A DNA stretch of 64,000 nucleotides, taken from the NCBI GenBank assembly GCA_041649495.1, contig JBAZMZ010000001.1, positions 623 through 64,622 on the forward strand, in the 5' to 3' direction. The DNA comes from Minisyncoccota bacterium (GTDB lineage Bacteria; Patescibacteriota; Minisyncoccia; Phycocordibacterales; XYD1-FULL-46-19). Below are positions 46,727-60,600 of this stretch, in pieces. The notes beneath the pieces were generated by a model that did no database searches, was not told the origin of the DNA, and worked only from the letters and a program-made list of their open reading frames with translations. Every line of letters begins with the position of its first letter. The first letter of the stretch is position 1. Both the position numbers and the translations under genes were made by a program.

Positions 46727-47158
46727 ATGGTTTATTATATTTTAGCGGTCGTGGCGCTGGTTTCGCTGGCCATTCTCTCCTTCCTTTTTCGGCGCCAAAT
46801 CATGATCAATCGAGCCAAAAATCTCGATTATAATGAGTTGAATCATTACGGGGTGGCGAATGTGATGATTGATTACTTGGCTTTTAAGATTGTGCGTTTT
46901 TGCCAGTCAGGGTTAAGGAAACTTTATCTTTTCTTTCTTCATTTTGTGAAAAATTCGATGGCGACGGCGCGTTACGCTATTGTTAAAACCGAAAGACGCT
47001 TTAACCAAATTGTTGATTCGGCGCCTAGCCCCGAAGAAATTCATAAAACCGACAAAGTCTCTTTTTTCTTGAAAGAGATTAAAGATCACAAAGATGCCAC
47101 TATGGCTGAAATCCAAATCATGGCCGATGAGGCGAAAAAGGTCGAAAGTGAAAACTGA
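46727..47158 (+). CDS. hypothetical membrane protein
   Basis: N-terminal TM helix; no domain identified. Confidence 0.4.
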   Translation: MVYYILAVVALVSLAILSFLFRRQIMINRAKNLDYNELNHYGVANVMIDYLAFKIVRFCQSGLRKLYLFFLHFVKNSMATARYAIVKTERRFNQIVDSAPSPEEIHKTDKVSFFLKEIKDHKDATMAEIQIMADEAKKVESEN

Positions 47159-47230
47159 GCCAGCACGAGGATTCGAACCCCGGACCTTCGCTTTACAAAA
47201 GCGTTGCTCTACCAACTGAGCTATGCTGGC
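47158..47230 (-). tRNA. tRNA-Thr (anticodon UGU)
   Basis: 73-nt cloverleaf: acceptor GCCAGCA/UGCUGGC, D arm GCUC-AGUUGGUA-GAGC, anticodon loop UUUGUAA, T arm CGGGG-UUCGAAU-CCUCG. CCA is not encoded. Confidence 0.9.
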
Positions 47231-50499: not shown

Positions 50500-52560
50500 A
50501 TGAATAGCCCTAAAACACGCAAATATAGCGCGGACGATATCGTGGTGCTCGAGGGTCTAGATCCGGTTCGTAAGCGTCCTGGTATGTATATTGGTTCGAC
50601 TGGCGAGGATGGCCTCCACCATCTCTTGGTTGAGATTTTTGACAACTCTCGCGATGAGGCGATGAACGGTTTTTGTAGTGAGATTGAAGTTGCTCTTTTG
50701 CCTGGTAACGCGGTGCGCATTGTGGATAATGGCACAGGGATCCCAGTTGATGTCCATAAAAAAACTAAAGTCTCGGCGCTCGAAACGGTGCTTACTGTTC
50801 TCCACGCCGGTGGCAAATTTGAAGGTGATGGTTATAAAATCTCTGGCGGTTTGCATGGTGTCGGCGCGTCAGTGGTTAACGCCCTTTCGACTTGGCTCAA
50901 GGCCGAGGTTCATCGTGATGGTGGCAAATACGCACAAGAATACGCGCAGGGCAAGAAAAAAAATAATGTTAAAAAGGTGGCTAGTTCCAAGCTTCACGGG
51001 ACCGTTATTATGTTCCAACCTGATCCAACGATTTTTTCTGAAACCGTCTATGATTGGGATCGAGTCGTTAATCATTTGCGTGGGCAGGCTTATCTCGTCA
51101 AAGGTTTGCGGGTTCGAGTGATTGATGCGCGCGACACGAAGGAGAAAATCGATCTCGACAAGATCTTTTGGTTGAAGGAACTCGAGCTTGAGGTGCCGTC
51201 AAAAACTTTCTATTTTGAGGGCGGGTTATTGTCTCTCGTGCGTTATTATAATCGTCACGACAAACCGCTTCATCGCGAGATTTTTTATGTTGAGAAAGAA
51301 GCGAATGAAGTGATGGTAGAAGTAGCGCTTCAATATGTTGATGATATTGATGCCAAAGAAACCAGTTTTACTAACAACACGATTACGCCGGAGGGCGGGA
51401 TGCACTTAACCGGCTTTCGTTCGGCGCTGACCCGAATTCTAAATGATTACGGTAAGAAAAATAATATTTTAAAAGAGAGTGAGGGAGGTTTGACTGGCGA
51501 CGATGTGCGCGAAGGGCTAACCGCGGTGATTTCGGTCAAATTAAGAAACCCGCAATTTGAGGGTCAGACTAAGGCCAAATTGGGGAGTGTGGAGGCTCGC
51601 GGGGCCGTCGAAACGGTCTTCGGCGAGGCCTTTAACGCTTATCTAGAAGAACACCCCGATGACGCCAAAGCTATCATCAGCAAGTCAATTTTGGCTCTCA
51701 AAGCTCGTAAGGCGGCCAAAGCGGCCAAGGATAGCGTGATTCGTAAGGGGGCGCTGGAGGGTATGACCTTGCCAGGCAAATTGGCTGATTGTCAAAGTCG
51801 CGATCCGGAAGAATCCGAAATCTTTATTGTGGAGGGTGATTCGGCCGGTGGCTCGGGTAAACAAGGGCGTGATCGCCATACTCAAGCGATTCTCCCGCTC
51901 AAGGGCAAGATTTTGAATGTCGAGAAAGCGCGTCTTGATAAGATGTTGGCGTTTAAAGAAATCAAATCGCTGATTATTGCGATGGGGGTGGGGATTGGCG
52001 ATATGATGGATCTTTCAAAATTACGTTATCATAAAATTATTATCGCGACCGATGCCGACGTGGACGGGGCGCATATTACGACCTTATTGTTGACTTTCTT
52101 TTTCCGTTATTACAAACCCTTGATTGATGCAGGACATATTTATATCGCTCAACCGCCGTTGTATAAAATTAAAAAAGGTAAAGAAACGGTTTACGCTTAT
52201 ACCGATGAAGAAAAGGCCAAAGTGATTAAGTCGATGGGGGGCAATGAGACTGAAGTGAAAGAGGTTGACGATTCGCTTGAAACGGATATTGGGGGAGAAG
52301 AAAATGAGGGGGGAGAGGAAATAGAAGCTAAGGCCAAATCAGGCAAAATCTCGATTCAACGCTATAAGGGTTTGGGCGAAATGAATCCTGAAGAATTATG
52401 GGAAACCACCATGAACCCGGCTTCTCGCATCTTGAAACAAGTGACCGCGCTCAATGTGGAAGAAGCCGACAAGACCTTCGACGTCTTAATGGGTTCGGAA
52501 GTTGAACCCCGCAAAATCTTCATTCAGACCCACGCGCATTTGGCGAACGTTGACGTCTAG
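50500..52560 (+). CDS. gyrB: DNA gyrase subunit B
   Basis: GHKL ATPase motifs (LEGLDPVRKRPGMYIGS, GLHGVG), the Toprim EGDSAGG motif and the PLKGKILN motif. Confidence 0.9.
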   Translation: MNSPKTRKYSADDIVVLEGLDPVRKRPGMYIGSTGEDGLHHLLVEIFDNSRDEAMNGFCSEIEVALLPGNAVRIVDNGTGIPVDVHKKTKVSALETVLTVLHAGGKFEGDGYKISGGLHGVGASVVNALSTWLKAEVHRDGGKYAQEYAQGKKKNNVKKVASSKLHGTVIMFQPDPTIFSETVYDWDRVVNHLRGQAYLVKGLRVRVIDARDTKEKIDLDKIFWLKELELEVPSKTFYFEGGLLSLVRYYNRHDKPLHREIFYVEKEANEVMVEVALQYVDDIDAKETSFTNNTITPEGGMHLTGFRSALTRILNDYGKKNNILKESEGGLTGDDVREGLTAVISVKLRNPQFEGQTKAKLGSVEARGAVETVFGEAFNAYLEEHPDDAKAIISKSILALKARKAAKAAKDSVIRKGALEGMTLPGKLADCQSRDPEESEIFIVEGDSAGGSGKQGRDRHTQAILPLKGKILNVEKARLDKMLAFKEIKSLIIAMGVGIGDMMDLSKLRYHKIIIATDADVDGAHITTLLLTFFFRYYKPLIDAGHIYIAQPPLYKIKKGKETVYAYTDEEKAKVIKSMGGNETEVKEVDDSLETDIGGEENEGGEEIEAKAKSGKISIQRYKGLGEMNPEELWETTMNPASRILKQVTALNVEEADKTFDVLMGSEVEPRKIFIQTHAHLANVDV

Positions 52561-54398
52561 TTTCGGTTTTTAATTTCAGCGAGAATTTTGGTGATGAAGT
52601 TGGGGAGGGAAACTTTTTCGCTTTTGTCGTCAGAATTGCGAGTCTCGACGGTGATCATTTTTTCTTCCATTTCTTTATCGCCAAGAACGACGAGGTAAGG
52701 GATTTTTTGCATTTTGGCGTTTCTAATCTTTTTGCCCAAGGTCTCATTTGATTCGTCTAGCTCTGTTCTGATGCCATTTTCTTTTAGCGAGGCGAAAACT
52801 TCTTGCGCGTAAGCCATTTGCTTTTCGCTAATTGGTAAAATTTTCACTTGGACTGGCGCGAGCCAAGTGGGGAAGGCACCAGCATAATGTTCAATTAATA
52901 AGCCAATGAATCTTTCGAAACTGCCGAATAAAGCGCGGTGAAGCATGTAGGGTCGTTCTTCTTGGCCCTCACTATTGGTAAAGGTCATCTCGAATCGTTC
53001 GGGCAAGTTAAAGTCAAATTGGAGGGTTGAACATTGCCAGAGTCGACCCAAACAATCCTTAATCTTGAAGTCTAACTTCGGGCCATAGAAAGCGGCTTCC
53101 CCCAATTCTTCTTGAAAGTCGAGCTTTTTTTCTTGGGCAATTTTTCGTAAGACATTTTCGGTGAATTCCCAACCTTCATCGGTGCCAGCATATTTATCTT
53201 TATTTTGCGGATCACGAAGTGAGAGAAAGACTTTAACCGAATTGATATCAAAGCCAAAAGCCTCATAAATGAAGAGAATAAAATCAACAACCTGTTTTAA
53301 TTCTTGTTCAACTTGATCTTGACGACAAATGATGTGGGCATCATCTTGAGTAAAACCGCGAACCCTGGTTAAACCCGATAACTCGCCTCGTTTTTCAAAT
53401 CGATAAACTGTTCCGCACTCGGCCCAACGTAAGGGCAGGTCACGGTAAGAGTGAGGATTATTTTTATAGATTTGAACATGGAAAGGGCAATTCATTGGTT
53501 TGATCAAATATTCCTCTGACTTTTCCGCTTTTTGACCTAATTGTCTCTCTTCTAATGTTTGCCCGACTTCCATTGGTGGATACATACTCTTGTTGTAAAA
53601 GCCCCAATGGCCCGAAGTCTCCCAAAGAATTTTACTACCAATATGGGGACTTCTAACTAAATCATAGCCATTTTCTAAATGTTTGGCATACCAAAAATCC
53701 TCAATCACTCGCCAGAGAATAGCGCCCTTGGGATGCCAGAGAGGTAAACCGAGGCCAACTTTTTCGTCGATATGAAAGAGGTCTAATTCCTTACCCAATT
53801 TACGATGATCCCTTTTTTCGGCTTCGGCTTGTTGGTCGAGGTAAGTGTCGAGCTCGCCTTTGTTGGCAAAAGCGACGCCATAGATACGAGTCAGCATTTT
53901 ATTTTTCTCATCACCCTGCCAATAAGCGCCAGCGACCCGAGTCAGGCGAAAAGCGTCGCGAGCAATTTCGCTCGAGTTAGCCACGTGGGGCCCGGCGCAA
54001 AGATCGGCAAAGTTTGCCTGGCTTTCTGGCGACGAGGTGTCTGATTTATAAATAGAAATTTTTTCACCAGTTTTGTCGAGCACTTCAATTAACTCCAATT
54101 TATAAGGCTCGTTAGCAAAAATTTCTCGCGCTTGATCGGCGCTAATTTCTTCGCGCCTGAAGTCTATATTTTGACTGACCAAGGCACGTATCGCTTTTTC
54201 TAATTCTAATAGCTCATTTTCGGCCGGTACGGTTTGACCAAAATCAAAATCATAATAAAAGCCGTTTTCAATGATCTGGCCAATCCCCAATTTGATCTCG
54301 GGATATTTGGCCTTAATGGCTATGGCTAATAAATGAGCCAGCGAATGACGAATTTTGTTTATGCTGAGCTCTATCGAAGTATTTATATTGTTTTCCAT
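52557..54398 (-). CDS. thrS: threonine--tRNA ligase
   Basis: HSLAHLLA zinc-site region, class II motifs and C-terminal anticodon-binding domain. Confidence 0.9.
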   Translation of the reverse strand: MENNINTSIELSINKIRHSLAHLLAIAIKAKYPEIKLGIGQIIENGFYYDFDFGQTVPAENELLELEKAIRALVSQNIDFRREEISADQAREIFANEPYKLELIEVLDKTGEKISIYKSDTSSPESQANFADLCAGPHVANSSEIARDAFRLTRVAGAYWQGDEKNKMLTRIYGVAFANKGELDTYLDQQAEAEKRDHRKLGKELDLFHIDEKVGLGLPLWHPKGAILWRVIEDFWYAKHLENGYDLVRSPHIGSKILWETSGHWGFYNKSMYPPMEVGQTLEERQLGQKAEKSEEYLIKPMNCPFHVQIYKNNPHSYRDLPLRWAECGTVYRFEKRGELSGLTRVRGFTQDDAHIICRQDQVEQELKQVVDFILFIYEAFGFDINSVKVFLSLRDPQNKDKYAGTDEGWEFTENVLRKIAQEKKLDFQEELGEAAFYGPKLDFKIKDCLGRLWQCSTLQFDFNLPERFEMTFTNSEGQEERPYMLHRALFGSFERFIGLLIEHYAGAFPTWLAPVQVKILPISEKQMAYAQEVFASLKENGIRTELDESNETLGKKIRNAKMQKIPYLVVLGDKEMEEKMITVETRNSDDKSEKVSLPNFITKILAEIKNRN

Positions 54399-54507
54399 AT
54401 TTTTTTAATTAATAATTAGACTTGACTTTTTAATAATTGGGTATAGACTACAAGGACAAATGGCTTCGGCCCGACTCACGCGCAAGCGTGAGGTTACAAG
54501 GAAGAAC

Positions 54508-54906
54508 TCAAGGGATCAAAGCCTTGAGTTTTTTCGTCAACTCACCAAACTCTTCTTCTGGCAAATCTCCGACCTTGTAGCTTAATCTCTTGGCGTCAAT
54601 TAGGCGTATTTGAGATAAAATAGCACTGCCATAAACATTATCTTGGGTAGTTATTTTAAAGTAATAGATAGATTCCTTGTTGTTTGAAGTTAAAGGAATA
54701 CCCCAAAATATTTCATTGTTGAATTTTCTAATGATTATTATTGGCCGGAGAAAATCAATACCTTTGCCATCCTGTTCAAACCCGATGTTTTCTCCAAGAT
54801 GGCAATACCAAATTTCTCGTTCATGAAAAAAGGCTCGATTAATGTCCGGCTCATTCTGAAGTCGACTTTTTAACGGTTGCCAATTTTTGTAATTTTTTTC
54901 TTCCAT
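54508..54906 (-). CDS. PemK/MazF/EndoA-family toxin (mRNA interferase-like)
   Basis: REIWYCHLGENIGFEQDGKG..FLRPIIII...GIPLTS...ILSQIRLIDAKRL..LPEEEFGELTKKL aligns with B. subtilis EndoA and E. coli MazF core motifs. Confidence 0.7.
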   Translation of the reverse strand: MEEKNYKNWQPLKSRLQNEPDINRAFFHEREIWYCHLGENIGFEQDGKGIDFLRPIIIIRKFNNEIFWGIPLTSNNKESIYYFKITTQDNVYGSAILSQIRLIDAKRLSYKVGDLPEEEFGELTKKLKALIP

Positions 54907-54941
54907 TATTTTGATTTTTTAACGAAGATAATAAAACGAAG

Positions 54942-54979
54942 CGCCCCGGCAAAAACACAAAGTGTTTTTGCCGGGGCGA
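54942..54979. terminator. perfect 17-bp palindromic hairpin 35 nt upstream of the mazF-like start; terminator-like on both strands
   Basis: cgccccggcaaaaacac aaag gtgtttttgccggggcg. Confidence 0.5.
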
Positions 54980-55191
54980 TAATTTGTTTAGAATTTTCGC
55001 GGTTCCACCCGACTTCGCCCTGCCGAAGTTCCTTTTTTGAACGAAGGCTGGCAACCTCATTACTGATTAGATTAGTCCCAGCTCGGGAACCCATTTAATG
55101 GGCGAGTGGTTGGTAGCCACTCCAATCTCTAAGGTAATTTAATGTTAGGCCTTATTGAATAAATTGTCAAATTGTTATATCGTATTAGAGT

Positions 55192-56142
55192 ATGAAAAAA
55201 TATCTAATTGTCCTTCTCGTTGTTATTTTAATTAGTATTGTGGCTCGGGCAATTTATTTGAAATTAAATAATTCTCCAGAAGATCAAGCTGTTTTCAACC
55301 GGGTTATCTTAAGGGGAACTAAGGGTGGTTATTATTTTTCTAGTCGCGAGGGTGAATCAATCTATTTGTCCACAAAGGTGGCGGGTCAATACAATGACTT
55401 TTTAGCAGAAAATTTTGATAAAGAATTAAATATTGAGGGTTGGGTTACTGAATATCCTTGTCCCAAAAACGAAGACAAAATGACCCAATGTTTTAATGGC
55501 AAAATGTTAAGCCAATTAGACAGAGTTTCTTTATCTGCTGAATCGTTCCCTGTTCAATCGACGGCCCATCAATATTCTTGCCAAGCGGATAATGATTGCC
55601 ATCTCTCTTGCATTTGGGGAGCGGTTAACGAAGCTTGGTATGTGAACAACGGACAAGAGGAGAATTGTGTCGGTGGTTGTAATGGTATTGGGATGAAAGT
55701 TCATTGCGTTAATAATGTTTGCCACACTTTTCTTGTTAATGATAAACCAGCCGATTTTTACTGCAGTGGTCGCGACAAGAAATTTAATTTGTCAGGACAA
55801 ATTTCTTGCGCTAAAGAAAACGAAGCCATCGGTGCGATGGAGATGCCAAATCAATGTTGTATCGGGTTGTTACCGATGGTCGGCGGTTATAACGAAACGA
55901 ATTGTAGCTTGCCCCCAGCTCCCACTGGTTTGAGTGTTTGTTCAAATTGTGGTGATGGTGTTTGCAACCAAGGAGTTGAAAATAAATGTAATTGCCCGGC
56001 CGATTGTGGTAACGAAAAAAAGAAATGCGAAGATTATGAAAATGTCTGTGGCGAAGCGCTCTTTGAACAACAACAAAAAAGCGGAGACATCTACGATCCG
56101 GATAAAAAATGCTGGTTCAAATGTGTTACCCCGGGCACTTAA
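55192..56142 (+). CDS. secreted cysteine-rich protein (about 36 Cys) with an MKKYLIV signal anchor
   Basis: N-terminal TM/signal; dense Cys pattern (CxxC, CNC, CPADC). Confidence 0.55.
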   Translation: MKKYLIVLLVVILISIVARAIYLKLNNSPEDQAVFNRVILRGTKGGYYFSSREGESIYLSTKVAGQYNDFLAENFDKELNIEGWVTEYPCPKNEDKMTQCFNGKMLSQLDRVSLSAESFPVQSTAHQYSCQADNDCHLSCIWGAVNEAWYVNNGQEENCVGGCNGIGMKVHCVNNVCHTFLVNDKPADFYCSGRDKKFNLSGQISCAKENEAIGAMEMPNQCCIGLLPMVGGYNETNCSLPPAPTGLSVCSNCGDGVCNQGVENKCNCPADCGNEKKKCEDYENVCGEALFEQQQKSGDIYDPDKKCWFKCVTPGT

Positions 56143-56166
56143 TTCTATCATTAATCCATAAATTTT

Positions 56167-56799
56167 ATGAAAAAATATCTAATTGTTCTAATCGTTGTCG
56201 TTCTGGTTATTATCAGCGCCGGAGTTGTTTATTGGAAATTGATTAAACCAATTTCAATTGTTCCCGACCAGGTTGCTTGTACCGAAGAAGCCAAAATTTG
56301 CCCCGATGGTTCAGCTGTTGGCCGTCAAGGCCCAAATTGTGAATTTGCGGAGTGTCCAGTTGCTCAAGCGGTTGACGAAACGGCTGATTGGAAGATTTAC
56401 AAAAATGATAAATATGGGTTTGAGTTTAAGTATCCAAGTAATTGGTCACTATCTAGCCAGGGTTCAGATCAAGAGATAAACATAAGACATTACTCAGATT
56501 CTTCGCAAAAGAAATTTGACGGAGCGATTATTCTTACGGTTGGTATGCCGATTGCAGGTGGCGAAAGACCAGATTTGGTTAAATCAGAAGAAGTAAAGGT
56601 TGATGGACAGATAGCGACGAGAAAGATTGAGAGCTGGAGCGCTCAAAGTAACAATAATTTAAGTTATCAATTGAATATCGAGTCAGGATCAAAAATTCTT
56701 ATCAGTGTTTACGCTTATGACGGAGAACACGGATATAGTTTGGATACTTATAACAGTCTTCTAGATAAAGTAATGGGGACTTTCAAATTCACCCAATAA
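56167..56799 (+). CDS. secreted or anchored hypothetical protein, N-terminal paralog of the preceding gene
   Basis: The first ~30 nt are nearly identical to the start of the 55192 gene (atgaaaaaatatctaattgt). Confidence 0.5.
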   Translation: MKKYLIVLIVVVLVIISAGVVYWKLIKPISIVPDQVACTEEAKICPDGSAVGRQGPNCEFAECPVAQAVDETADWKIYKNDKYGFEFKYPSNWSLSSQGSDQEINIRHYSDSSQKKFDGAIILTVGMPIAGGERPDLVKSEEVKVDGQIATRKIESWSAQSNNNLSYQLNIESGSKILISVYAYDGEHGYSLDTYNSLLDKVMGTFKFTQ

Positions 56800-56805
56800 T
56801 TAAAG

Positions 56806-56935
56806 CTCTTTTACTGCCTCGATAATAATACTCGGCTCACCCCGCCTTCGCTGAAGCTACGGACGGGCAAGCGTTACGATGGGAGATTTTACCGCGGGAG
56901 GTGACGGTCCCTGTTGACTTTAGGCTGAGAATTGA
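56806..56935 (-). pseudogene. degenerate duplicate of the dnaE 3'-terminal coding segment; direct repeat partner of 57665..57745
   Basis: tgcctcgataataatactcggctcacc...gttacgatgggagattttaccgcgggaggtgacgg versus tgcctcaataattatactcggctcacc...gttgcgatgagaaattttcccacggagggcgacga. About 30-nt indel. Translates to ..RGKISHRN.., matching the DnaE tail. Confidence 0.6.
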
Positions 56936-56951
56936 CTAAAATAAAGATAAT

Positions 56952-57218
56952 ATGGATATGAAAGGAATTGACAAAAATTACACTTTTCGCGTTATCATTG
57001 AACCGGAAAGCCCCAAGGGTTTTCATGGTTTTGTACCATTGCTTCGTGGTCTGCATACTTTTGGCGACTCGATGGATGAGGTCAGAAAAAATCTTAAAGA
57101 GGCGATAATTTGTCATTTGCAAGGTTTGGCCAAGGATAAACAGCCAGTTCCCCAAGAAGAAAACACTTTTGAGCTGGTTCAAACCTTTTCAGCTAAAGAA
57201 TTAGCCTTGAGTTGCTAA
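56952..57218 (+). CDS. hicB: HicB-family antitoxin
   Basis: YTFRVIIEPESPKGFHGFVPLLRGLHTFGDSMDEVRKNLKEAIICHLQ (HicB/UPF0150 N-terminal domain). Confidence 0.75.
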   Translation: MDMKGIDKNYTFRVIIEPESPKGFHGFVPLLRGLHTFGDSMDEVRKNLKEAIICHLQGLAKDKQPVPQEENTFELVQTFSAKELALSC

Positions 57219-57225
57219 TTTAATT

Positions 57226-57462
57226 ATGCCGAAATTACCAGTAATTAAAGTCCGAGAGCTGGTAAAAATTTTAGATAGGCTTGGTTTTTTGAAACATCAT
57301 TGTATCGGTAGTCATGCTCAATTCAAACGTATCGATGGTTATCGAATTACAATTCCAATCCATCACGGCAAGGATTTTGACAAGGGAATCTTGAGAGGAA
57401 TAATTGGTGACCTTAATTTAACCGTTGACGAGTTTATTGTTCTCTTAAAAAAGAAAAAATAA
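57226..57462 (+). CDS. hicA: HicA-family toxin (YcfA-like mRNA interferase)
   Basis: MPKLPVIKVRELVKILDRLGF...GSHAQFKRIDGYRITIPIHHGKDFDKGILRGII. Confidence 0.75.
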   Translation: MPKLPVIKVRELVKILDRLGFLKHHCIGSHAQFKRIDGYRITIPIHHGKDFDKGILRGIIGDLNLTVDEFIVLLKKKK

Positions 57463-57483
57463 TTATTATTAATTTTTAATTTA

Positions 57484-57663
57484 ATGATGAAAAAATATAT
57501 AATTATTGCTGTTGTTGTCGTTATTGTAATAATAACCCTAAGTTTTTACAGGATGACAGGGCACTGTCTTTCTGGTTACGATATCGCCGGGGGTTGTGAA
57601 AAAGAGACTTCTGGAATTACGTGTTTTGATGATGTTTTGACAAAGTGTCGTTTTGGGTTTTAA
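57484..57663 (+). CDS. 59-aa Cys-containing small protein with an MMKKYIII signal anchor; third member of the MKKY paralog set
   Basis: Shares its N-terminus with the 55192 and 56167 genes; not in the ORF track because it is under 60 aa. Confidence 0.4.
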   Translation: MMKKYIIIAVVVVIVIITLSFYRMTGHCLSGYDIAGGCEKETSGITCFDDVLTKCRFGF

Positions 57664-57664
57664 A

Positions 57665-60600
57665 TTATAATTCTTTCATTGCCTCAATAATTATACTCGG
57701 CTCACCGTTGCGATGAGAAATTTTCCCACGGAGGGCGACGATTTTGTCGGGGATTAAGAGCTCGCGATATTTTTCGTAGACATCAGAAAAGGCGACCGCT
57801 TCGATCGAGTCGGTGAAGTCAAACATTTTGATAAAGGCCATCTTTTTGTTATTTTTGGTGATTATTTCGCGCACGGTATCAATAACGCCGCCGGTAATGG
57901 CGGGGAAGCCTTCTTTTTGTTCGCGATGATGTTTGATGGTATTTTCGGGTTTGTCGAAGCGGTCACGATAAGGTTCAAGCGGATGGCCCGAGACATAGAG
58001 ACCCAATAATTCTTTTTCCCAGGCGAGTTTGGTTTTAGGGTCAACCGGCTCAACTTCTTTTAATCGCAAGGCCGGCGGAGTTGCTGTTTCTGGTAATAAG
58101 CCAAAGAGCGAAGTTTGGTTGGCATTATTGCCCAATTCTTGCCGATTGAAGGCGAGGGCTTCATCCACATTGCCGAGGACTTGTCCGCGTTCCACCCCCA
58201 AGCTATCAAAGGCACCAGCTTTAGCGAGGGCTTCGAGCGATTTCTTGTTCATATTTTTGTGCTTCACGCGTGAGAGAAAATCGGCATAATCTTGATATAA
58301 ACCATTTTGTTTTCGTTCTTCCACGATAAAATGAGAAATCTCTTGACCGAGATTTTTGATCGTCACCAGACCAAATCTAATCCGGTCGAGACCGTCGGTA
58401 TTCTTTTTTGATAATTTTTCAGCTGCTTCGGTTAAGCCACTTGAACCGAGGCCTTTAATCACCGTGAAGTCTTCGAAACTTTCATTAATATCAGGGGGCA
58501 AAACGGGCAAATTCATTCGGCGACACTCGGTAATAACCTCGGCAATTTTTTCGGTGTCACCCGCTTCGGCCGAGAGCACGGCCGTCATATATTCGGAGGG
58601 GTAATTGGCTTTTAAGTAACTAGTTTGGTAAGCGACTCGGCCGTAACTAGCGGCGTGGGCTTTGTTGAAGCCGTAAGCGGCAAAGGGTTCGATCAAAAGC
58701 CAGAGTTCGTGGGCCTTTTTCTCAGACAAACCGTTTTTTACTAGACCGTCAAACAATTTACCTTTTTGCGCCTCCATTTCTTTAGGAATTTTTTTACCCA
58801 TCGCTTTGCGCAATTTGTCGGCCTCAATCCACGAATAGCCGGCTAAGTGGATGGCGGTGAGCATGACATCATCTTGGTAAACCAATACGCCGAACGAGTG
58901 GTGAAGAATCGGTTCGAGTCGCGGGTCAAGATATTTAACCAGAGCGGGGTTGTGTTTGCGTTTAATATATTCGGGAATCATTTCCATTGGACCCGGACGA
59001 TACAGGGCGACCATGGCGTTAATATCGAAAATCGTGGTGGGTTGAAGCTCCTTAAGCCAACGGGTCATGCCCGCGCCACTAAGTTGGAAAAGACCAATTG
59101 TTTCGCCGCGAGCCAGCATCGCAAAAGTTTTCGTATCGTCGAGCGGGATATTGTTGATGTCAATAATCACGCCATGAACTTTTTTAATAATTTTAATGGC
59201 GTCTTCGAGGATGGAGAGATTGCGAATCCCGAGGAAATCATATTTCAGCAAGCCCGCATCCTCCACGGCGTGCATCTCGTATTGAGTAATGGTTTTGCCA
59301 CCCTTAGGGTCAAATTGAACGGGCGTGAAGTCGGTAATCTCGGTGGGGGAAATGACGACGCCAGCGGCGTGGACCGAAATATGTCGAGCGCAACCCTCGA
59401 TTTTTTTCGCCAAGTCAATAATTTTTTTGGTGTCGGCATCTTTCTTATACATTTCTTCTAATTCTGGCACCATCTCTAGCGCGTGGGTGATGGTCATCGG
59501 AAAGCCTTGTGAGCCCATCGGGATTAATTTTGAAATTTGATCGCCAATCGCGTAAGGGTAACCAAGGGCGCGAGACACATCGCGCACTGCCCCGCGGGCC
59601 ATCATTGAACCGAAAGTGCCAATTTGGGCGACATTATTCTCGCCGTATTTATGGCGAGCATACTCAATAATCTCATCGCGTCGTTTGTCGGCGTAATCCA
59701 TATCGATATCGGGCGGCGACGGTCGGTCGGCATTCAAGAACCGCTCGAAGGGCAGTTCATAATAGAGCGGGTCAACATTAGTAATGCCGATAATAAAAGA
59801 AATAAGCGAACCCGCGGCCGAGCCTCGAGTATTAGTAAAAATCCCCGTTTCGTGAGCGTGATTAATAAGGTCGGACACGACGAGAAAATAGGGCGAATAA
59901 CCTTTTTTGCTAATCACCTCGAATTCATATTCCATTCTGGTTCGAGCCAACTCGGCTCGGTCAGGATTTTGTTCAATATATTTAGCCAAACCGGCTTCAG
60001 CCATTTTTTTGAGTTCTTGATTATAATCAGAATCAGGGGGCACGGGATAACGGGGGAAGGTCCATTGGCCTAATTCAAGTGTGACATCACAGCGCTCGGC
60101 AATCTTCAAGCTATTTTCAATGGCTTCGGGGACTTGGGCAAAGTTTTTCGCCATCTCTTCACTAGAAAGAAAAGAAAAATCTTCCTCTGTATTAGTGACG
60201 CCCTTCAAATCAGACAAATCATTGCCAGTTTGGATGGCGAGCAGGGTGTGGTGAGCTTCGGCGTCGTCTCTGTTTAGATAATGTGTATCCTGGGTCGCGA
60301 CTAGGGGAATATTTAATTTTTTCCCCAATTCGATAACTTTAGCCGTAATTTCGGTTTGGTTTTCAACAAACGGGTGGTGCATTATTTCGAGATAATAATT
60401 GTCAACGCCAAAAATTTCTTGGTATTCTTTGATCACCCCCTCCGCTTTTTCGGGTTCATAAACTAAAGTTTTCGAGAGCTCTCCGCCCCGACAACCCGAG
60501 AGACAAATCAAGCCCTCGTGATATTCACGCAACAATTCTTTATCCGCCCGTGGTTTGTAATAATAGCCTTCGAGGTTGGCTTTGGTGACAATTTTAATTA

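What the first reader, a model, noticed from the sequence alone, without database searches (positions are those of the whole stretch)
54400..55190. MazF/EndoA-like toxin without a recognisable antitoxin, preceded by a perfect 17-bp palindrome
The 132-aa minus-strand ORF aligns motif by motif with MazF, PemK and EndoA. The motifs are the G-x-IW...RP-IIII block, IPLTS, SQIRLIDAKRL and the acidic C-terminal helix.

The upstream ORF reads MGSRAGTNL... (62 aa). Its stop overlaps the toxin ATG in a TAATG arrangement, as in coupled toxin-antitoxin pairs. However, it has no Shine-Dalgarno sequence, no MazE, AbrB or RHH-like character, and it contains a perfect 17-bp hairpin (54942-54979).

Two readings are possible. 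Either this is a solo toxin with a structured leader or terminator-like 5' element (possibly an RNA regulator), or the pair includes a novel antitoxin. Hairpins also flank the 3' end of the toxin gene.
Basis: partly seen in the sequence, partly recalled or inferred. Interest (0 to 1): 0.55.

Follow-up and report, generated by a model that had tools for sequence, protein, structure and literature searches.

The report
MazF-like toxin with partner small RNA
The "toxin without an antitoxin" is a real MazF-type RNA-cutting enzyme gene: its upstream "ORF plus palindrome" is a threonine-tRNA-sensing T-box leader, and the hairpins at its 3' end are a conserved small RNA gene on the opposite strand that accompanies this toxin family throughout the Patescibacteria and is probably its missing antitoxin.

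Summary
The 132-aa ORF is a MazF/PemK-fold protein, and the 17-bp palindrome, the TAATG overlap and the 3' hairpins are all present.

The interpretation needs revision.

1. The 62-aa upstream ORF is not a gene. It lies inside a divergent T-box leader with a Thr specifier ACC and a UGGA bulge that matches U73 of tRNA-Thr. The palindrome is the leader's intrinsic terminator.

2. No protein partner is conserved beside the toxin gene.

3. Every homologous locus examined (window plus 89 others, two subfamilies, all Patescibacteria) carries a roughly 80-nt small RNA gene, convergent and immediately after or overlapping the stop codon. It has a near-consensus promoter, a UUCG hairpin, a GNRA hairpin and a terminator. 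Covariation is strong, and G-U pairs mark the antisense strand as the one that folds.

4. Gene and RNA are duplicated together as one unit.

I conclude this is a toxin/cis-antisense-RNA module. It is like type I in layout but has a type II toxin fold, and I found no description of it. In Ca. Vogelbacteria the module sits between the thrS T-box and thrS, so toxin transcription is gated by tRNA-Thr charging. The RNA's antitoxin role and its mechanism are inferred, not shown.

The parts
55142..55170 (-). Promoter-like site of the leader: TTGACA (55170-55165), 17-nt spacer, TAACAT (55147-55142). Transcription start is about 55135.
   Evidence: 10 of 12 matches. TTGAC and the TA..AT hexamer are conserved in the four aligned leaders.
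54930..55135 (-). Divergent T-box-type leader RNA with threonine specificity. It contains the 62-aa 'ORF'.
   Evidence: Rfam RF00230 scores 28.1 bits, E=0.0023, below the gathering score of 93. The fold z-score is -5.2. Homologous leaders occur in L003, L081 and L082.
55104..55122 (-). Specifier hairpin GAGUGG-CUACCAA-CCACUC. The Thr codon ACC is at 55114-55112 and is followed by A at 55111.
   Evidence: ACCAA is invariant in the loop of all four leaders. The stem differs in all four, and 3 of 6 pairs show compensatory changes.
54998..55010 (-). T-box core GGGUGGAACCGCG. The UGGA bulge (55007-55004) would pair with the 3' UCCA of tRNA-Thr.
   Evidence: It is the only match (at up to 1 mismatch, and an exact one) in the 64-kb window. 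The tRNA-Thr(UGU) at 47157-47230 has discriminator U73.
54972..55011 (-). Antiterminator: CGGG / 7-nt bulge UGGAACC / GCGA.AAUU...AAUU.UCGC / CCCG. Its 3' strand is the 5' arm of the terminator.
   Evidence: ViennaRNA gives -7.9 kcal/mol for the antiterminator against -32.1 for the terminator. One A1 pair changes C-G to U-A in L082.
54942..54978 (-). The 17-bp perfect palindrome. It is the intrinsic terminator of the T-box leader and is followed by CUUCGUUUUAUUAU (to about 54930).
   Evidence: Five of 17 pairs show compensatory changes across the four leaders.
54906..55094 (-). 62-aa ORF (MGSRAGTNL...). It is a spurious reading frame inside the leader, not an antitoxin.
   Evidence: It has no Pfam hit. 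The frame is not kept in L081, L082 or L003, and the region is absent in L182. AlphaFold2 predicts a single helix with pTM 0.33.
54508..54906 (-). MazF/PemK-fold endoribonuclease gene (132 aa) with an extra N-terminal helix (residues 6-18).
   Evidence: Pfam PF02452. A PDB profile search hits B. subtilis EndoA at E=4e-4. The AlphaFold2 model (pLDDT 78) matches MazF structures with TM 0.66-0.77. R54-P55 is invariant and T73 nearly so across 22 homologues.
54422..54449 (+). Promoter of the convergent small RNA: TTGACT (54422-54427), 16-nt spacer, TAGACT (54444-54449).
   Evidence: Among 73 loci the -35 is TTGACT or TTGACA in 56 and the -10 is TATACT or TATAAT in 41. The -10 lies 12 nt before GGCUUCGG in 55 of 73. 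The spacer sequence is not conserved.
54456..54536 (+). Small RNA of about 80 nt, antisense to the toxin 3' end. It reads 5' ACAAAU, P1 GGC-UUCG-GCC (54462-54471), P2 CUCACGC-GCAA-GCGUGAG (54475-54492), an A-rich linker, then a terminator hairpin (54502-54533) and U-run. It overlaps the stop codon and the last 8-9 codons (54508-54536).
   Evidence: Alignment A3 and RNAalifold. Pair counts show 93.5% of cells paired and 266 double-change cells against 74 in shuffles. G-U pairs outnumber A-C mismatches 118 to 19. Covariance model R1 scores 95.6 bits here and 52-110 bits in 85 other loci.
52557..54398 (-). thrS (threonyl-tRNA synthetase, 613 aa). It is the gene the Thr T-box belongs with, and it lies 110 nt downstream of the toxin gene.
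   Evidence: Pfam tRNA-synt_2b, HGTP_anticodon and tRNA_SAD. The order toxin, small RNA, thrS, gyrB is kept in L003, L081, L082 and L182.

Best explanation
The locus is a three-part RNA-controlled unit on the minus strand.

**1. T-box leader.** A sigma-70-type promoter (55170-55142) drives a divergent T-box leader. Uncharged tRNA-Thr(GGU) would pair with the ACC specifier, which sits in a hairpin loop, and its 3' UCCA end would pair with the UGGA bulge. That would stabilise the weak antiterminator against the 17-bp terminator (the 'palindrome') and let RNA polymerase read into the next gene.

**2. Toxin gene.** That gene encodes a MazF/PemK-fold endoribonuclease. It has no protein antitoxin.

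**3. Convergent small RNA.** On the opposite strand, a near-consensus promoter beyond the toxin gene's 3' end fires back towards it and makes an RNA of about 80 nt. The RNA has a UUCG hairpin, a GNRA hairpin and a terminator that contains the toxin stop codon.

I propose that this RNA is the toxin's cognate antitoxin or regulator and that it acts mainly in cis. It would pair with the complementary 3' end or 3' UTR of the toxin mRNA, and the duplex would be cut or would destabilise the message. Cutting could also remove the stop codon and so send the product to trans-translation. The conserved 5' two-hairpin domain would provide stability and/or recognition by a protein.

**Shown:** the sequence features, their conservation and covariation, and the strict linkage of the toxin gene with the RNA gene.

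**Inferred:** transcription of the RNA, toxicity of the protein, the antitoxin role and the mode of action.

I put the existence of the small RNA gene at about 0.9 and the T-box reading at about 0.8. I put an antitoxin or negative-regulator role at about 0.55-0.6 and cis-antisense pairing as the main mode at about 0.45.
For: **Toxin**
- Pfam PF02452 at 42.3 bits, EndoA profile hit and MazF fold.
- R54 and P55 are invariant and T73 is nearly invariant.

**T-box**
- The core GGGUGGAACCGCG occurs exactly once in the window. The Rfam T-box hit has E=0.0023.
- The antiterminator has the canonical 7-nt bulge and excludes the terminator.
- The ACC+A loop is invariant while its stem covaries.
- UGGA matches U73 of the window's tRNA-Thr.
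- thrS lies downstream.

**No protein partner**
- Upstream regions are unrelated between loci.
- The largest cluster of neighbouring ORFs occurs in only 4 of 80 loci.

**Small RNA**
- A conserved element follows the stop codon in all 80 genome loci.
- The promoter hexamers sit at a fixed distance while the spacer between them varies.
- Covariation score is 0.512, against 0.211 in shuffles and at most 0.17 in slid controls. Nineteen of 21 predicted pairs show compensatory changes.
- G-U pairs outnumber A-C mismatches 118 to 19. Loops are UUCG in 71 of 76 and GNRA in 60 of 76, and only on the antisense strand.
- Model R1 finds the RNA beside every toxin gene held, including 10 loci not used to build it, and nowhere else in about 645 kb.
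- Four second copies each accompany a divergent paralogue.
- A second subfamily keeps the convergent promoter, P1 hairpin and second hairpin.
Against: - There are no expression data, so the RNA is inferred from sequence only.
- The Rfam T-box score is far below the gathering score (28 against 93). L003 and L081 are not detected at all. Stem I lacks the canonical long form.
- The RNA's 5' domain shows no locus-specific complementarity to the toxin's translation start region (p=0.51).
- In the second subfamily the overlap with the ORF is about 0-6 nt, so pairing needs read-through of the mRNA.
- P1 is conserved in sequence far beyond what antisense pairing needs, which points to protein recognition.
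- Wide distribution across Patescibacteria could equally mean a housekeeping RNase.
- L182 has the toxin, the RNA and thrS but no T-box, so the T-box link is not obligatory.
Confidence: 0.55

Rival explanations
1. The small RNA is the antitoxin but works as in type III systems. Its conserved P1/P2 domain would bind the MazF-like protein directly, possibly as a pseudo-substrate through the 5' ACAAAU. The antisense overlap would be incidental.
For: - P1 (AUGGCUUCGGCC) is nearly invariant across two subfamilies that share only modest protein identity (not measured), which antisense pairing does not require.
- The 5' domain does not co-vary with the translation start region.
- The overlap with the ORF almost vanishes in subfamily 2.
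- MazF proteins bind single-stranded ACA-type sites (established knowledge of the family).
Against: - A purely protein-binding RNA need not be convergent and abutting the stop codon, yet it is in every one of about 90 loci.
- There are no tandem repeats and no upstream position as in ToxI.
- ACA, ACAAA and related motifs are not depleted in the toxin ORFs.
Confidence: 0.3
2. The protein is not a toxin here. It would be a conserved Patescibacteria RNase with a routine role, and the small RNA would be its substrate, cofactor or an expression regulator. No addiction or defence function would be involved.
For: - The family is very widespread: 1356 and 930 protein clusters, at least 554 genome loci, and many candidate phyla.
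- There is no PADLOC defence hit.
- It is often embedded between housekeeping genes.
Against: - Positions vary between genomes and no neighbours are shared, as expected of mobile modules.
- Tandem paralogues occur, and at least one genome carries copies on two different contigs.
- The Arg and Thr that correspond by motif to the catalytic residues of toxic MazF enzymes are kept.
Confidence: 0.2
3. There is no small RNA. The conserved 3' element would be only a bidirectional terminator or an mRNA 3'-UTR stability element of a solo toxin.
For: - The third hairpin, with its A-tract and U-tract, looks like a bidirectional terminator.
- No transcript data exist.
Against: - TTGACW and TATAMT sit at fixed spacing on the antisense strand while the spacer between them varies.
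- G-U pairs outnumber A-C mismatches 118 to 19, and the UUCG and GNRA loops exist only on the antisense strand.
- P1 and P2 lie outside any terminator.
Confidence: 0.07
4. The 62-aa upstream ORF is a novel protein antitoxin, translationally coupled through TAATG.
For: - The ORF is open in the window and its stop overlaps the toxin ATG.
- One gene caller annotated it.
Against: - It is not conserved as a frame in L081, L082 or L003, and the region is absent in L182 and from the other 80 loci.
- It has no Pfam hit.
- AlphaFold2 gives pTM 0.33.
- Its sequence is fully explained by the T-box leader, whose stems change by compensatory substitutions.
Confidence: 0.02

Closest known systems
MazF / PemK(Kid) / EndoA toxins of type II toxin-antitoxin systems (Pfam PF02452)
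   Same: - The fold matches, and so do the family motifs (RP-hydrophobic strand, PLT, SQIR..D..R, C-terminal helix).
- The Pfam score is above the cut-off, and the model superposes on MazF-mt1, B. subtilis MazF and E. coli MazF.
   Different: - No MazE/PemI-type gene sits upstream, and no other protein partner is conserved.
- There is an extra N-terminal helix carrying invariant K4, W9 and K13.
- Usually there is no Shine-Dalgarno sequence, and the mRNA is often apparently leaderless.
- The conserved partner is a convergent small RNA.
Type I toxin-antitoxin systems with convergent, 3'-overlapping antisense RNAs (par Fst/RNA II of pAD1; TxpA/RatA and BsrG/SR4 of B. subtilis). Compared from my own knowledge; reviews PMC8167048 and PMC6562991 were listed but not read.
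   Same: - A small RNA with its own strong promoter is transcribed towards the toxin gene.
- It is complementary to the toxin mRNA 3' end.
- In subfamily 1 the two share a bidirectional terminator, as in par.
   Different: - Type I toxins are small hydrophobic peptides, whereas this is a 132-aa MazF-fold enzyme.
- This RNA has a sequence-conserved 5' domain of two hairpins outside the overlap.
- No second region complementary to the translation start region was found.
T-box riboswitches (Rfam RF00230), especially thrS leaders and the reduced-Stem-I forms reviewed in PMC7583486
   Same: - It has the T-box core sequence and a 7-nt bulge with UGGN matched to the tRNA discriminator base.
- Antiterminator and terminator are alternative structures.
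- The specifier is the cognate codon followed by a purine.
- An aminoacyl-tRNA synthetase gene lies downstream.
   Different: - It scores 28 bits against a gathering score of 93, and two of the four relatives are not detected.
- The specifier sits in the terminal loop of a hairpin within a predicted four-way junction. No canonical long Stem I was evident in the folds or the Rfam alignment; I did not search for the distal platform directly.
- According to PMC7583486, the distal platform is dispensable mostly in translational T-boxes and essential in transcriptional ones.
- The first gene downstream is a toxin, not thrS.
- The host is a Patescibacterium, and I found no paper on T-boxes in that group.
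Type III systems (ToxIN and relatives; my own knowledge)
   Same: An endoribonuclease toxin is paired with a structured RNA partner encoded beside it.
   Different: - ToxI-type antitoxins are tandem repeats upstream of the toxin on the same strand, and the toxin processes them.
- Here a single-copy RNA lies on the opposite strand, downstream.

Membership tests
MazF/PemK toxin family (PF02452) | Sequence matches the family HMM above the curated cut-off | tested here: met
   42.3 bits against a cut-off of 23.1, E=9.9e-11, covering profile positions 3-108 of 109.
MazF/PemK toxin family (PF02452) | MazF/Kid/CcdB-type SH3-like barrel with a C-terminal helix | tested here: met
   AlphaFold2 model with pLDDT 78.3 and pTM 0.71. 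The top 50 Foldseek PDB hits are all MazF or EndoA, with target-normalised TM 0.66-0.77.
MazF/PemK toxin family (PF02452) | Catalytic Arg in the 'RP-hydrophobic' strand and Thr/Ser in the following loop (R25/T48 of EndoA, R29/T52 of E. coli MazF; established knowledge) | tested here: inconclusive
   R54-P55 is invariant and aligns with EndoA R25. T73 in 'PLT' is nearly invariant, but the profile alignment places EndoA T48 two residues away. Activity was not tested.
Type II MazEF/PemIK module | Cognate protein antitoxin gene (MazE/PemI; AbrB or RHH fold) adjacent, normally upstream in the same operon | tested here: not met
   Upstream sequences are unrelated among 80 loci. No neighbouring ORF cluster occurs in more than 4 of 80 loci within 600 nt on either side. 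The 62-aa ORF is not conserved and has no fold.
Type I toxin-antitoxin system | Antitoxin is a small antisense RNA with its own promoter, complementary to the toxin mRNA | tested here: met
   This holds at the sequence level only. The promoter is conserved. The RNA is complementary to the stop codon, the last 8-9 codons and the 3' UTR. Transcription and pairing cannot be tested with these tools.
Type I toxin-antitoxin system | Toxin is a small (under about 60 aa) hydrophobic, membrane-active peptide | tested here: not met
   The protein is a 132-aa soluble MazF-fold protein.
Type III toxin-antitoxin system | RNA antitoxin made of tandem repeats upstream of the toxin gene on the same strand, separated from it by a terminator | tested here: not met
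   A single-copy RNA lies downstream on the opposite strand. Occasional tandem copies (L075, L186) are whole-unit duplications.
Type III toxin-antitoxin system | RNA binds and inhibits the toxin protein directly | not testable with these tools
   This needs binding and rescue assays. The sequence conservation of P1 is compatible with it.
T-box riboswitch (RF00230) | Reaches the Rfam gathering score | tested here: not met
   Window 28.1 bits and L082 22.0 bits, against a gathering score of 93. L003 has no hit at E up to 10 and L081 none at E up to 1.
T-box riboswitch (RF00230) | Conserved T-box sequence forming an antiterminator with a 7-nt bulge, whose UGGN pairs with the tRNA 3' NCCA | tested here: met
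   GGGUGGAACCGCG at 55010-54998. The fold is CGGG / UGGAACC bulge / GCGA.... UGGA matches U73 of the tRNA-Thr in the window.
T-box riboswitch (RF00230) | Mutually exclusive intrinsic terminator (or sequestrator) helix | tested here: met
   The 5' arm of the 17-bp terminator (CGCCCC...) is the 3' strand of the antiterminator. The energies are -32.1 against -7.9 kcal/mol. It is conserved with compensatory changes.
T-box riboswitch (RF00230) | Specifier codon cognate to the regulated synthetase, followed by a purine | tested here: met
   ACC-A is invariant in four leaders and thrS lies downstream. It sits in a terminal loop rather than the usual internal loop.
T-box riboswitch (RF00230) | Long Stem I with K-turn, AG bulge and distal loop platform that contacts the tRNA elbow | tested here: inconclusive
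   Folding predicts a four-way junction with three short hairpins. The Rfam alignment of Stem I is poor and runs into the promoter. No platform motif was recognised.

The most novel reading that the evidence does not exclude
This would be a previously undescribed class of toxin-antitoxin module, widespread in Patescibacteria, with these properties:

- A MazF-fold endoribonuclease is neutralised not by a MazE-type protein but by a dedicated, convergently transcribed structured small RNA.
- That RNA has a UUCG hairpin, a GNRA hairpin and a terminator, and it acts both by cis-antisense pairing and by direct recognition of its conserved 5' domain. It would therefore be a hybrid of types I and III built on a type II toxin.
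- In Ca. Vogelbacteria the toxin has additionally been placed under a tRNA-Thr-sensing T-box. This would couple toxin synthesis directly to amino-acid starvation.
Probability: 0.35. Interest if true: 0.85.

Novelty: new variant of a known kind. Interest (0 to 1): 0.78.

Why it matters
**Classification.** Toxin-antitoxin systems are classified by how the antitoxin works. MazF is the textbook type II toxin and is always described with a protein antitoxin. A MazF-fold family whose only conserved partner is a convergent small RNA would cross the type I, II and III boundaries. It would also show that a toxin fold can change its kind of antitoxin.

**Annotation.** More than two thousand protein clusters are currently annotated as "type II PemK/MazF family toxin", and some carry spurious neighbouring ORFs. 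The small RNA gives a concrete, testable candidate for the missing partner.

**RNA regulation in Patescibacteria.** It would add one of the first conserved regulatory small RNAs known in these organisms, whose RNA biology is almost unexplored.

**T-box biology.** The T-box finding appears to extend T-boxes to this group. It shows an unusual transcriptional T-box with its specifier in a hairpin loop. It also offers a direct wiring of tRNA charging to a growth-arresting RNase.

**Testability.** All of this can be tested in E. coli and in vitro without culturing the host.

Tried and rejected
1. **The 62-aa ORF as antitoxin: rejected.**
   - It has no Pfam hit.
   - The reading frame is not conserved.
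   - AlphaFold2 gives a single helix with pTM 0.33.

2. **A conserved protein partner on either side: none found.**
   - I ran all-against-all BLAST of the ORFs within 600 nt of the toxin gene in 80 loci.
   - The largest cluster occurs in only 4 loci.

3. **A known RNA family for the 3' element: none found.**
   - No Rfam family matched at E up to 1 in the window, L081, L082 or L182.
   - In L003, the weak hits that overlap the element are far below their gathering scores and mostly match only the hairpins (best E=0.09, SpF25 sRNA, 27 bits against a gathering score of 48).

4. **A second pairing site between the RNA's 5' domain and the toxin's translation start, as in par: not supported.** Cognate pairs gave -13.3 kcal/mol and non-cognate pairs -13.4 kcal/mol (p=0.51).

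5. **The decoy idea, tested through depletion of ACA, UAC or ACAAA in the toxin ORFs: no depletion.** The comparison was against synonymous-codon shuffles.

6. **A small peptide encoded by the RNA: rejected.** The AUG in AAAUGG is ACG in many of the loci, and the P2 length changes are not multiples of three.

7. **The module in viral contigs: not found.** Eighteen exact 16-mer hits were all chance matches in GC-rich coding DNA with no toxin gene nearby.

8. **A T-box directly before thrS in the closest ThrRS relatives: not found.**
   - L083 (67% identity) and L084 (61%) have dnaE followed by thrS, with neither a T-box nor the toxin.
   - So the ancestral state remains open.

9. **A T-box core match in L039: rejected.** It lies inside a coding region and is a chance match.

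10. **Literature: nothing found.** No paper describes a MazF/PemK toxin whose antitoxin is a small RNA (an antisense RNA that tunes a canonical MazE-MazF pair was listed, PMC8749433), nothing on such modules in Patescibacteria, and nothing on T-boxes in that group.
Full report
**1. What is in the sequence**

On the minus strand the window reads, 5' to 3':

- a sigma-70-like promoter, TTGACA-17-TAACAT (55170-55142);
- a leader of about 200 nt;
- a 132-aa ORF (54906-54508);
- a 110-nt gap;
- thrS (54398-52557);
- gyrB, convergent beyond thrS.

- The ORF matches Pfam PemK_toxin at 42.3 bits against a cut-off of 23.1.
- The 62-aa ORF ends in TAATG.
- The palindrome has perfect 17-nt arms, 54942-54958 and 54962-54978, with a 3-nt loop.
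- Hairpins follow the toxin stop codon.

**2. The toxin**

- The closest solved relative of a profile built from 22 homologues is B. subtilis EndoA/MazF, at E=4e-4.
- The AlphaFold2 model has pLDDT 78 and pTM 0.71. It superposes on MazF-mt1, B. subtilis, S. aureus and E. coli MazF with target-normalised TM 0.66-0.77.
- Beyond the MazF core there is an N-terminal helix (residues 6-18) carrying invariant K4, W9 and K13.
- R54-P55 is invariant and aligns with the catalytic Arg strand. T73 in 'PLT' is nearly invariant.
- No specific NCBIfam or PADLOC model fits.
- The family is large: 1356 clusters, 55-68% identical among the best 120. Nearly every source name points to Patescibacteria or Paceibacterota; the one exception, P0102 (Nanoarchaeota), is listed in section 9.

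**3. The 5' element is a T-box leader, not an antitoxin gene**

Rfam's only hit in 52000-58000 is the T-box model, at 28.1 bits and E=0.0023. That is well below the gathering score of 93. The individual T-box features are nevertheless present.

- **Core sequence.** GGGUGGAACCGCG at 55010-54998 is the only match in the window.
- **Antiterminator.** It folds as the canonical structure: CGGG, then the 7-nt bulge UGGAACC, then GCGA.AAUU / AAUU.UCGC, then CCCG, at -7.9 kcal/mol. Its 3' strand is the 5' arm of the 17-bp terminator, which folds at -32.1 kcal/mol and is followed by CUUCGUUUU.
- **Match to the tRNA end.** The UGGA of the bulge is complementary to UCCA, and the tRNA-Thr gene in the window has U73.
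- **Specifier.** A hairpin, GAGUGG-CUACCAA-CCACUC, presents the Thr codon ACC followed by A.

Homologous leaders precede the same toxin gene in three Ca. Vogelbacteria contigs: L003, L081 and L082.

- ACCAA is invariant while the stem differs in all four.
- Compensatory changes occur in 3 of 6 specifier pairs, 5 of 17 terminator pairs and 1 of 4 antiterminator A1 pairs.

The 62-aa frame is not kept in those loci. It has no ATG or is interrupted by stops, and in L182 the region is absent. It predicts a single low-confidence helix.

Stem I is atypical. The fold is a predicted four-way junction with the specifier in a terminal loop. A review states that reduced Stem I forms lacking the elbow platform are typical of translational T-boxes, and that the platform is essential in transcriptional ones (PMC7583486). 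This leader has a terminator, so it would be an unusual transcriptional variant. I rate the T-box reading at about 0.8.

**4. The 3' hairpins are a conserved convergent small RNA gene**

I fetched 80 genome loci that encode relatives of the toxin. Their upstream regions are unrelated, and no neighbouring ORF family occurs in more than 4 of 80 loci.

Every locus, however, has the same element right after the stop codon. Read on the opposite strand it is:

- TTGAC(T/A), a spacer of 16-18 nt, TATA(C/A)T;
- about 6 nt;
- ACAAA(U/C)-GGC-UUCG-GCC;
- a short junction;
- a covarying hairpin with a GNRA loop;
- an A-rich linker;
- a long hairpin plus U-run whose 5' arm contains the complement of the toxin stop codon.

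*Promoter evidence.*
- The -35 is TTGACT or TTGACA in 56 of 73 loci.
- The -10 is TATACT or TATAAT in 41 of 73, and most of the rest are one mismatch away.
- The -10 lies exactly 12 nt before GGCUUCGG in 55 of 73.
- The spacer sequences are not conserved.

*Structure evidence.*
- 93.5% of cells are paired.
- There are 266 double-change cells, against 74 ± 8 in shuffles.
- The covariation score is 0.512, against 0.211 in shuffles and at most 0.17 with slid partners.
- Nineteen of 21 RNAalifold pairs have compensatory changes.

*Strand evidence.*
- There are 118 G-U pairs and 19 A-C mismatches.
- Loops are UUCG in 71 of 76 sequences and GNRA in 60 of 76. On the toxin's strand these would read CGAA and UUGC, which are not stable tetraloops.

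*No ORF is conserved in the RNA.* AUG alternates with ACG, and length changes are not in threes.

*In the window.* The promoter is 54422-54449 (+). The RNA runs from about 54456 to about 54536 (+). It overlaps the stop codon and the last 8-9 codons of the toxin gene.

**5. The linkage is strict and the pair behaves as one unit**

- Covariance model R1 finds the RNA beside every toxin gene held, at 52-110 bits. That includes 10 loci not used to build the model. It finds the RNA nowhere else in 645 kb apart from weak opposite-strand echoes at the same sites.
- Four weaker extra hits each sit at the 3' end of a second, divergent toxin paralogue. They keep the promoter, the UUCG hairpin and the GCAA hairpin.
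- That paralogue defines a second subfamily specific to Patescibacteria, with 930 clusters.
- In four further loci of this subfamily, a convergent promoter drives AUUAUGGCUUCGGCC-UCCGAG, then a GC-rich hairpin, then CGAUGUUUU. One locus has a compensated variant of P1 and one has two tandem copies.
- In this subfamily the second hairpin is itself the terminator, and the overlap with the ORF shrinks to about 0-6 nt.
- The window has a single copy. Viral contigs have none.

**6. How it most likely works**

*Shown:*
- a MazF-fold gene with no conserved protein partner;
- a strictly linked, structured, promoter-bearing convergent RNA gene;
- in the window, a Thr T-box whose terminator lies 35 nt before the toxin ATG, leaving no room for another promoter.

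*Inferred:*
- The RNA is the cognate antitoxin or negative regulator.
- I favour cis-antisense action, at about 0.45. The invariant feature across both subfamilies is the convergent position abutting the stop codon, and a purely protein-binding RNA would not need that.
- In subfamily 1 the two transcripts share a bidirectional terminator, as in par of pAD1.
- In subfamily 2 the sense strand has no U-run after the hairpin, so the mRNA 3' UTR should be fully complementary to the RNA.
- Duplex cleavage could destabilise the message or remove the stop codon.
- The near-invariant P1 hairpin and the lack of any co-varying second target site suggest that the 5' domain is recognised by a protein. That protein could be the toxin itself, which is the type III-like rival (0.3).
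- A housekeeping-RNase reading cannot be excluded (0.2).

**7. The T-box and thrS context**

- The order toxin, small RNA, thrS, gyrB is kept in five contigs (window, L003, L081, L082, L182). Four of them have the Thr T-box upstream of the toxin, and L182 has none.
- The closest ThrRS relatives have dnaE followed directly by thrS, with neither element.
- The Thr specifier ties the T-box to thrS, so the toxin-RNA module most likely inserted between a thrS leader and thrS.
- The consequence, which is inferred, is that toxin transcription in the window is gated by uncharged tRNA-Thr.
- Whether thrS is still read through from the T-box promoter is open. The gap holds the RNA gene on the other strand. 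A weak -10-like hexamer follows AAGTCAAG in all five contigs, and only in L182 is it a perfect TATAAT.

**8. Comparison and novelty**

- The protein is a member of PF02452, but the locus fails the defining type II feature of an adjacent protein antitoxin.
- It has the layout of type I systems but fails the small-hydrophobic-toxin feature.
- It fails the type III repeat architecture.
- I found no paper describing a MazF/PemK toxin whose antitoxin is a small RNA (PMC8749433, listed, concerns an antisense RNA that tunes a canonical MazE-MazF pair), nothing on such modules in Patescibacteria, and nothing on T-boxes in that group.
- I classify it as a new variant of a known kind. It is of high interest because it is widespread, sharply defined and directly testable.

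**9. Seen in passing**

- A conventional HicB/HicA pair lies at 56952-57462.
- The toxin genes usually lack a Shine-Dalgarno sequence and often have a -10 box 6-8 nt before the ATG.
- A short hairpin-containing element lies on different sides of the module in L003 and L082.
- Some loci have tandem RNA modules: L019, L075 and L186.
- A nearly identical toxin is deposited as Nanoarchaeota.

Noticed in passing
window 56952-57462 (+): A conventional type II pair: a HicB-like antitoxin (88 aa, PF15919) followed by a HicA toxin (78 aa, PF07927). The genome therefore does use protein antitoxins elsewhere.
   Followed up: partly
window 55040-55135 (-); L003 3735-3830; L081 170-250; L082 2255-2335: The Stem I region of the T-box folds as a four-way junction, with the ACC specifier in a 7-9-nt terminal loop and two further short hairpins. 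No canonical K-turn or distal platform was recognised. That is unusual for a terminator-type T-box.
   Followed up: partly
L003 3955-3995 and L082 2975-3015: The element aaaacattt(t)aaaaaatgttcgcccaagaaaa lies between the T-box terminator and the toxin ATG in L003. In L082 it lies between the small RNA gene and the thrS ATG. This suggests the toxin-RNA module was inserted or moved at different points of the same thrS leader.
   Followed up: no
L075 4377-4483, L019 2408-2535, L186 1915-2060: The 5' hairpin modules of the small RNA are duplicated in tandem. L075 has two P1-P2 units, L019 has two P2 units and L186 has two whole units.
   Followed up: no
72 related loci, 60 nt upstream of the toxin ATG: Only 5 of 72 toxin genes have a Shine-Dalgarno core. 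In 25 of 72 a -10-like hexamer ends 4-12 nt before the ATG (peak at 6-8 nt), which suggests leaderless mRNAs.
   Followed up: partly
window 55192-57663 (+): About 2.5 kb of plus-strand genes lies between dnaE and the T-box promoter: two signal-peptide-like proteins that start MKKYLIV (one rich in Cys), the HicBA pair and a 59-aa membrane-like ORF. In L082 the T-box follows dnaE directly, and in L083 and L084 thrS follows dnaE directly.
   Followed up: no
protein P0102: A 117-aa protein 71% identical to the window toxin is deposited as 'Nanoarchaeota archaeon'. Over its whole length it is identical to P0005. It is either a binning error or a transfer between Patescibacteria and DPANN archaea.
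   Followed up: no
L184 813-1001 (JGI record of the same sequence as the window): A public gene call annotates the spurious 62-aa ORF inside the T-box leader as a protein-coding gene.
   Followed up: no
window 47157-47230 (-): The tRNA-Thr(UGU) gene has discriminator U73 and no encoded CCA. The tRNA-Thr(GGU) that the ACC specifier calls for is not in the window.
   Followed up: partly
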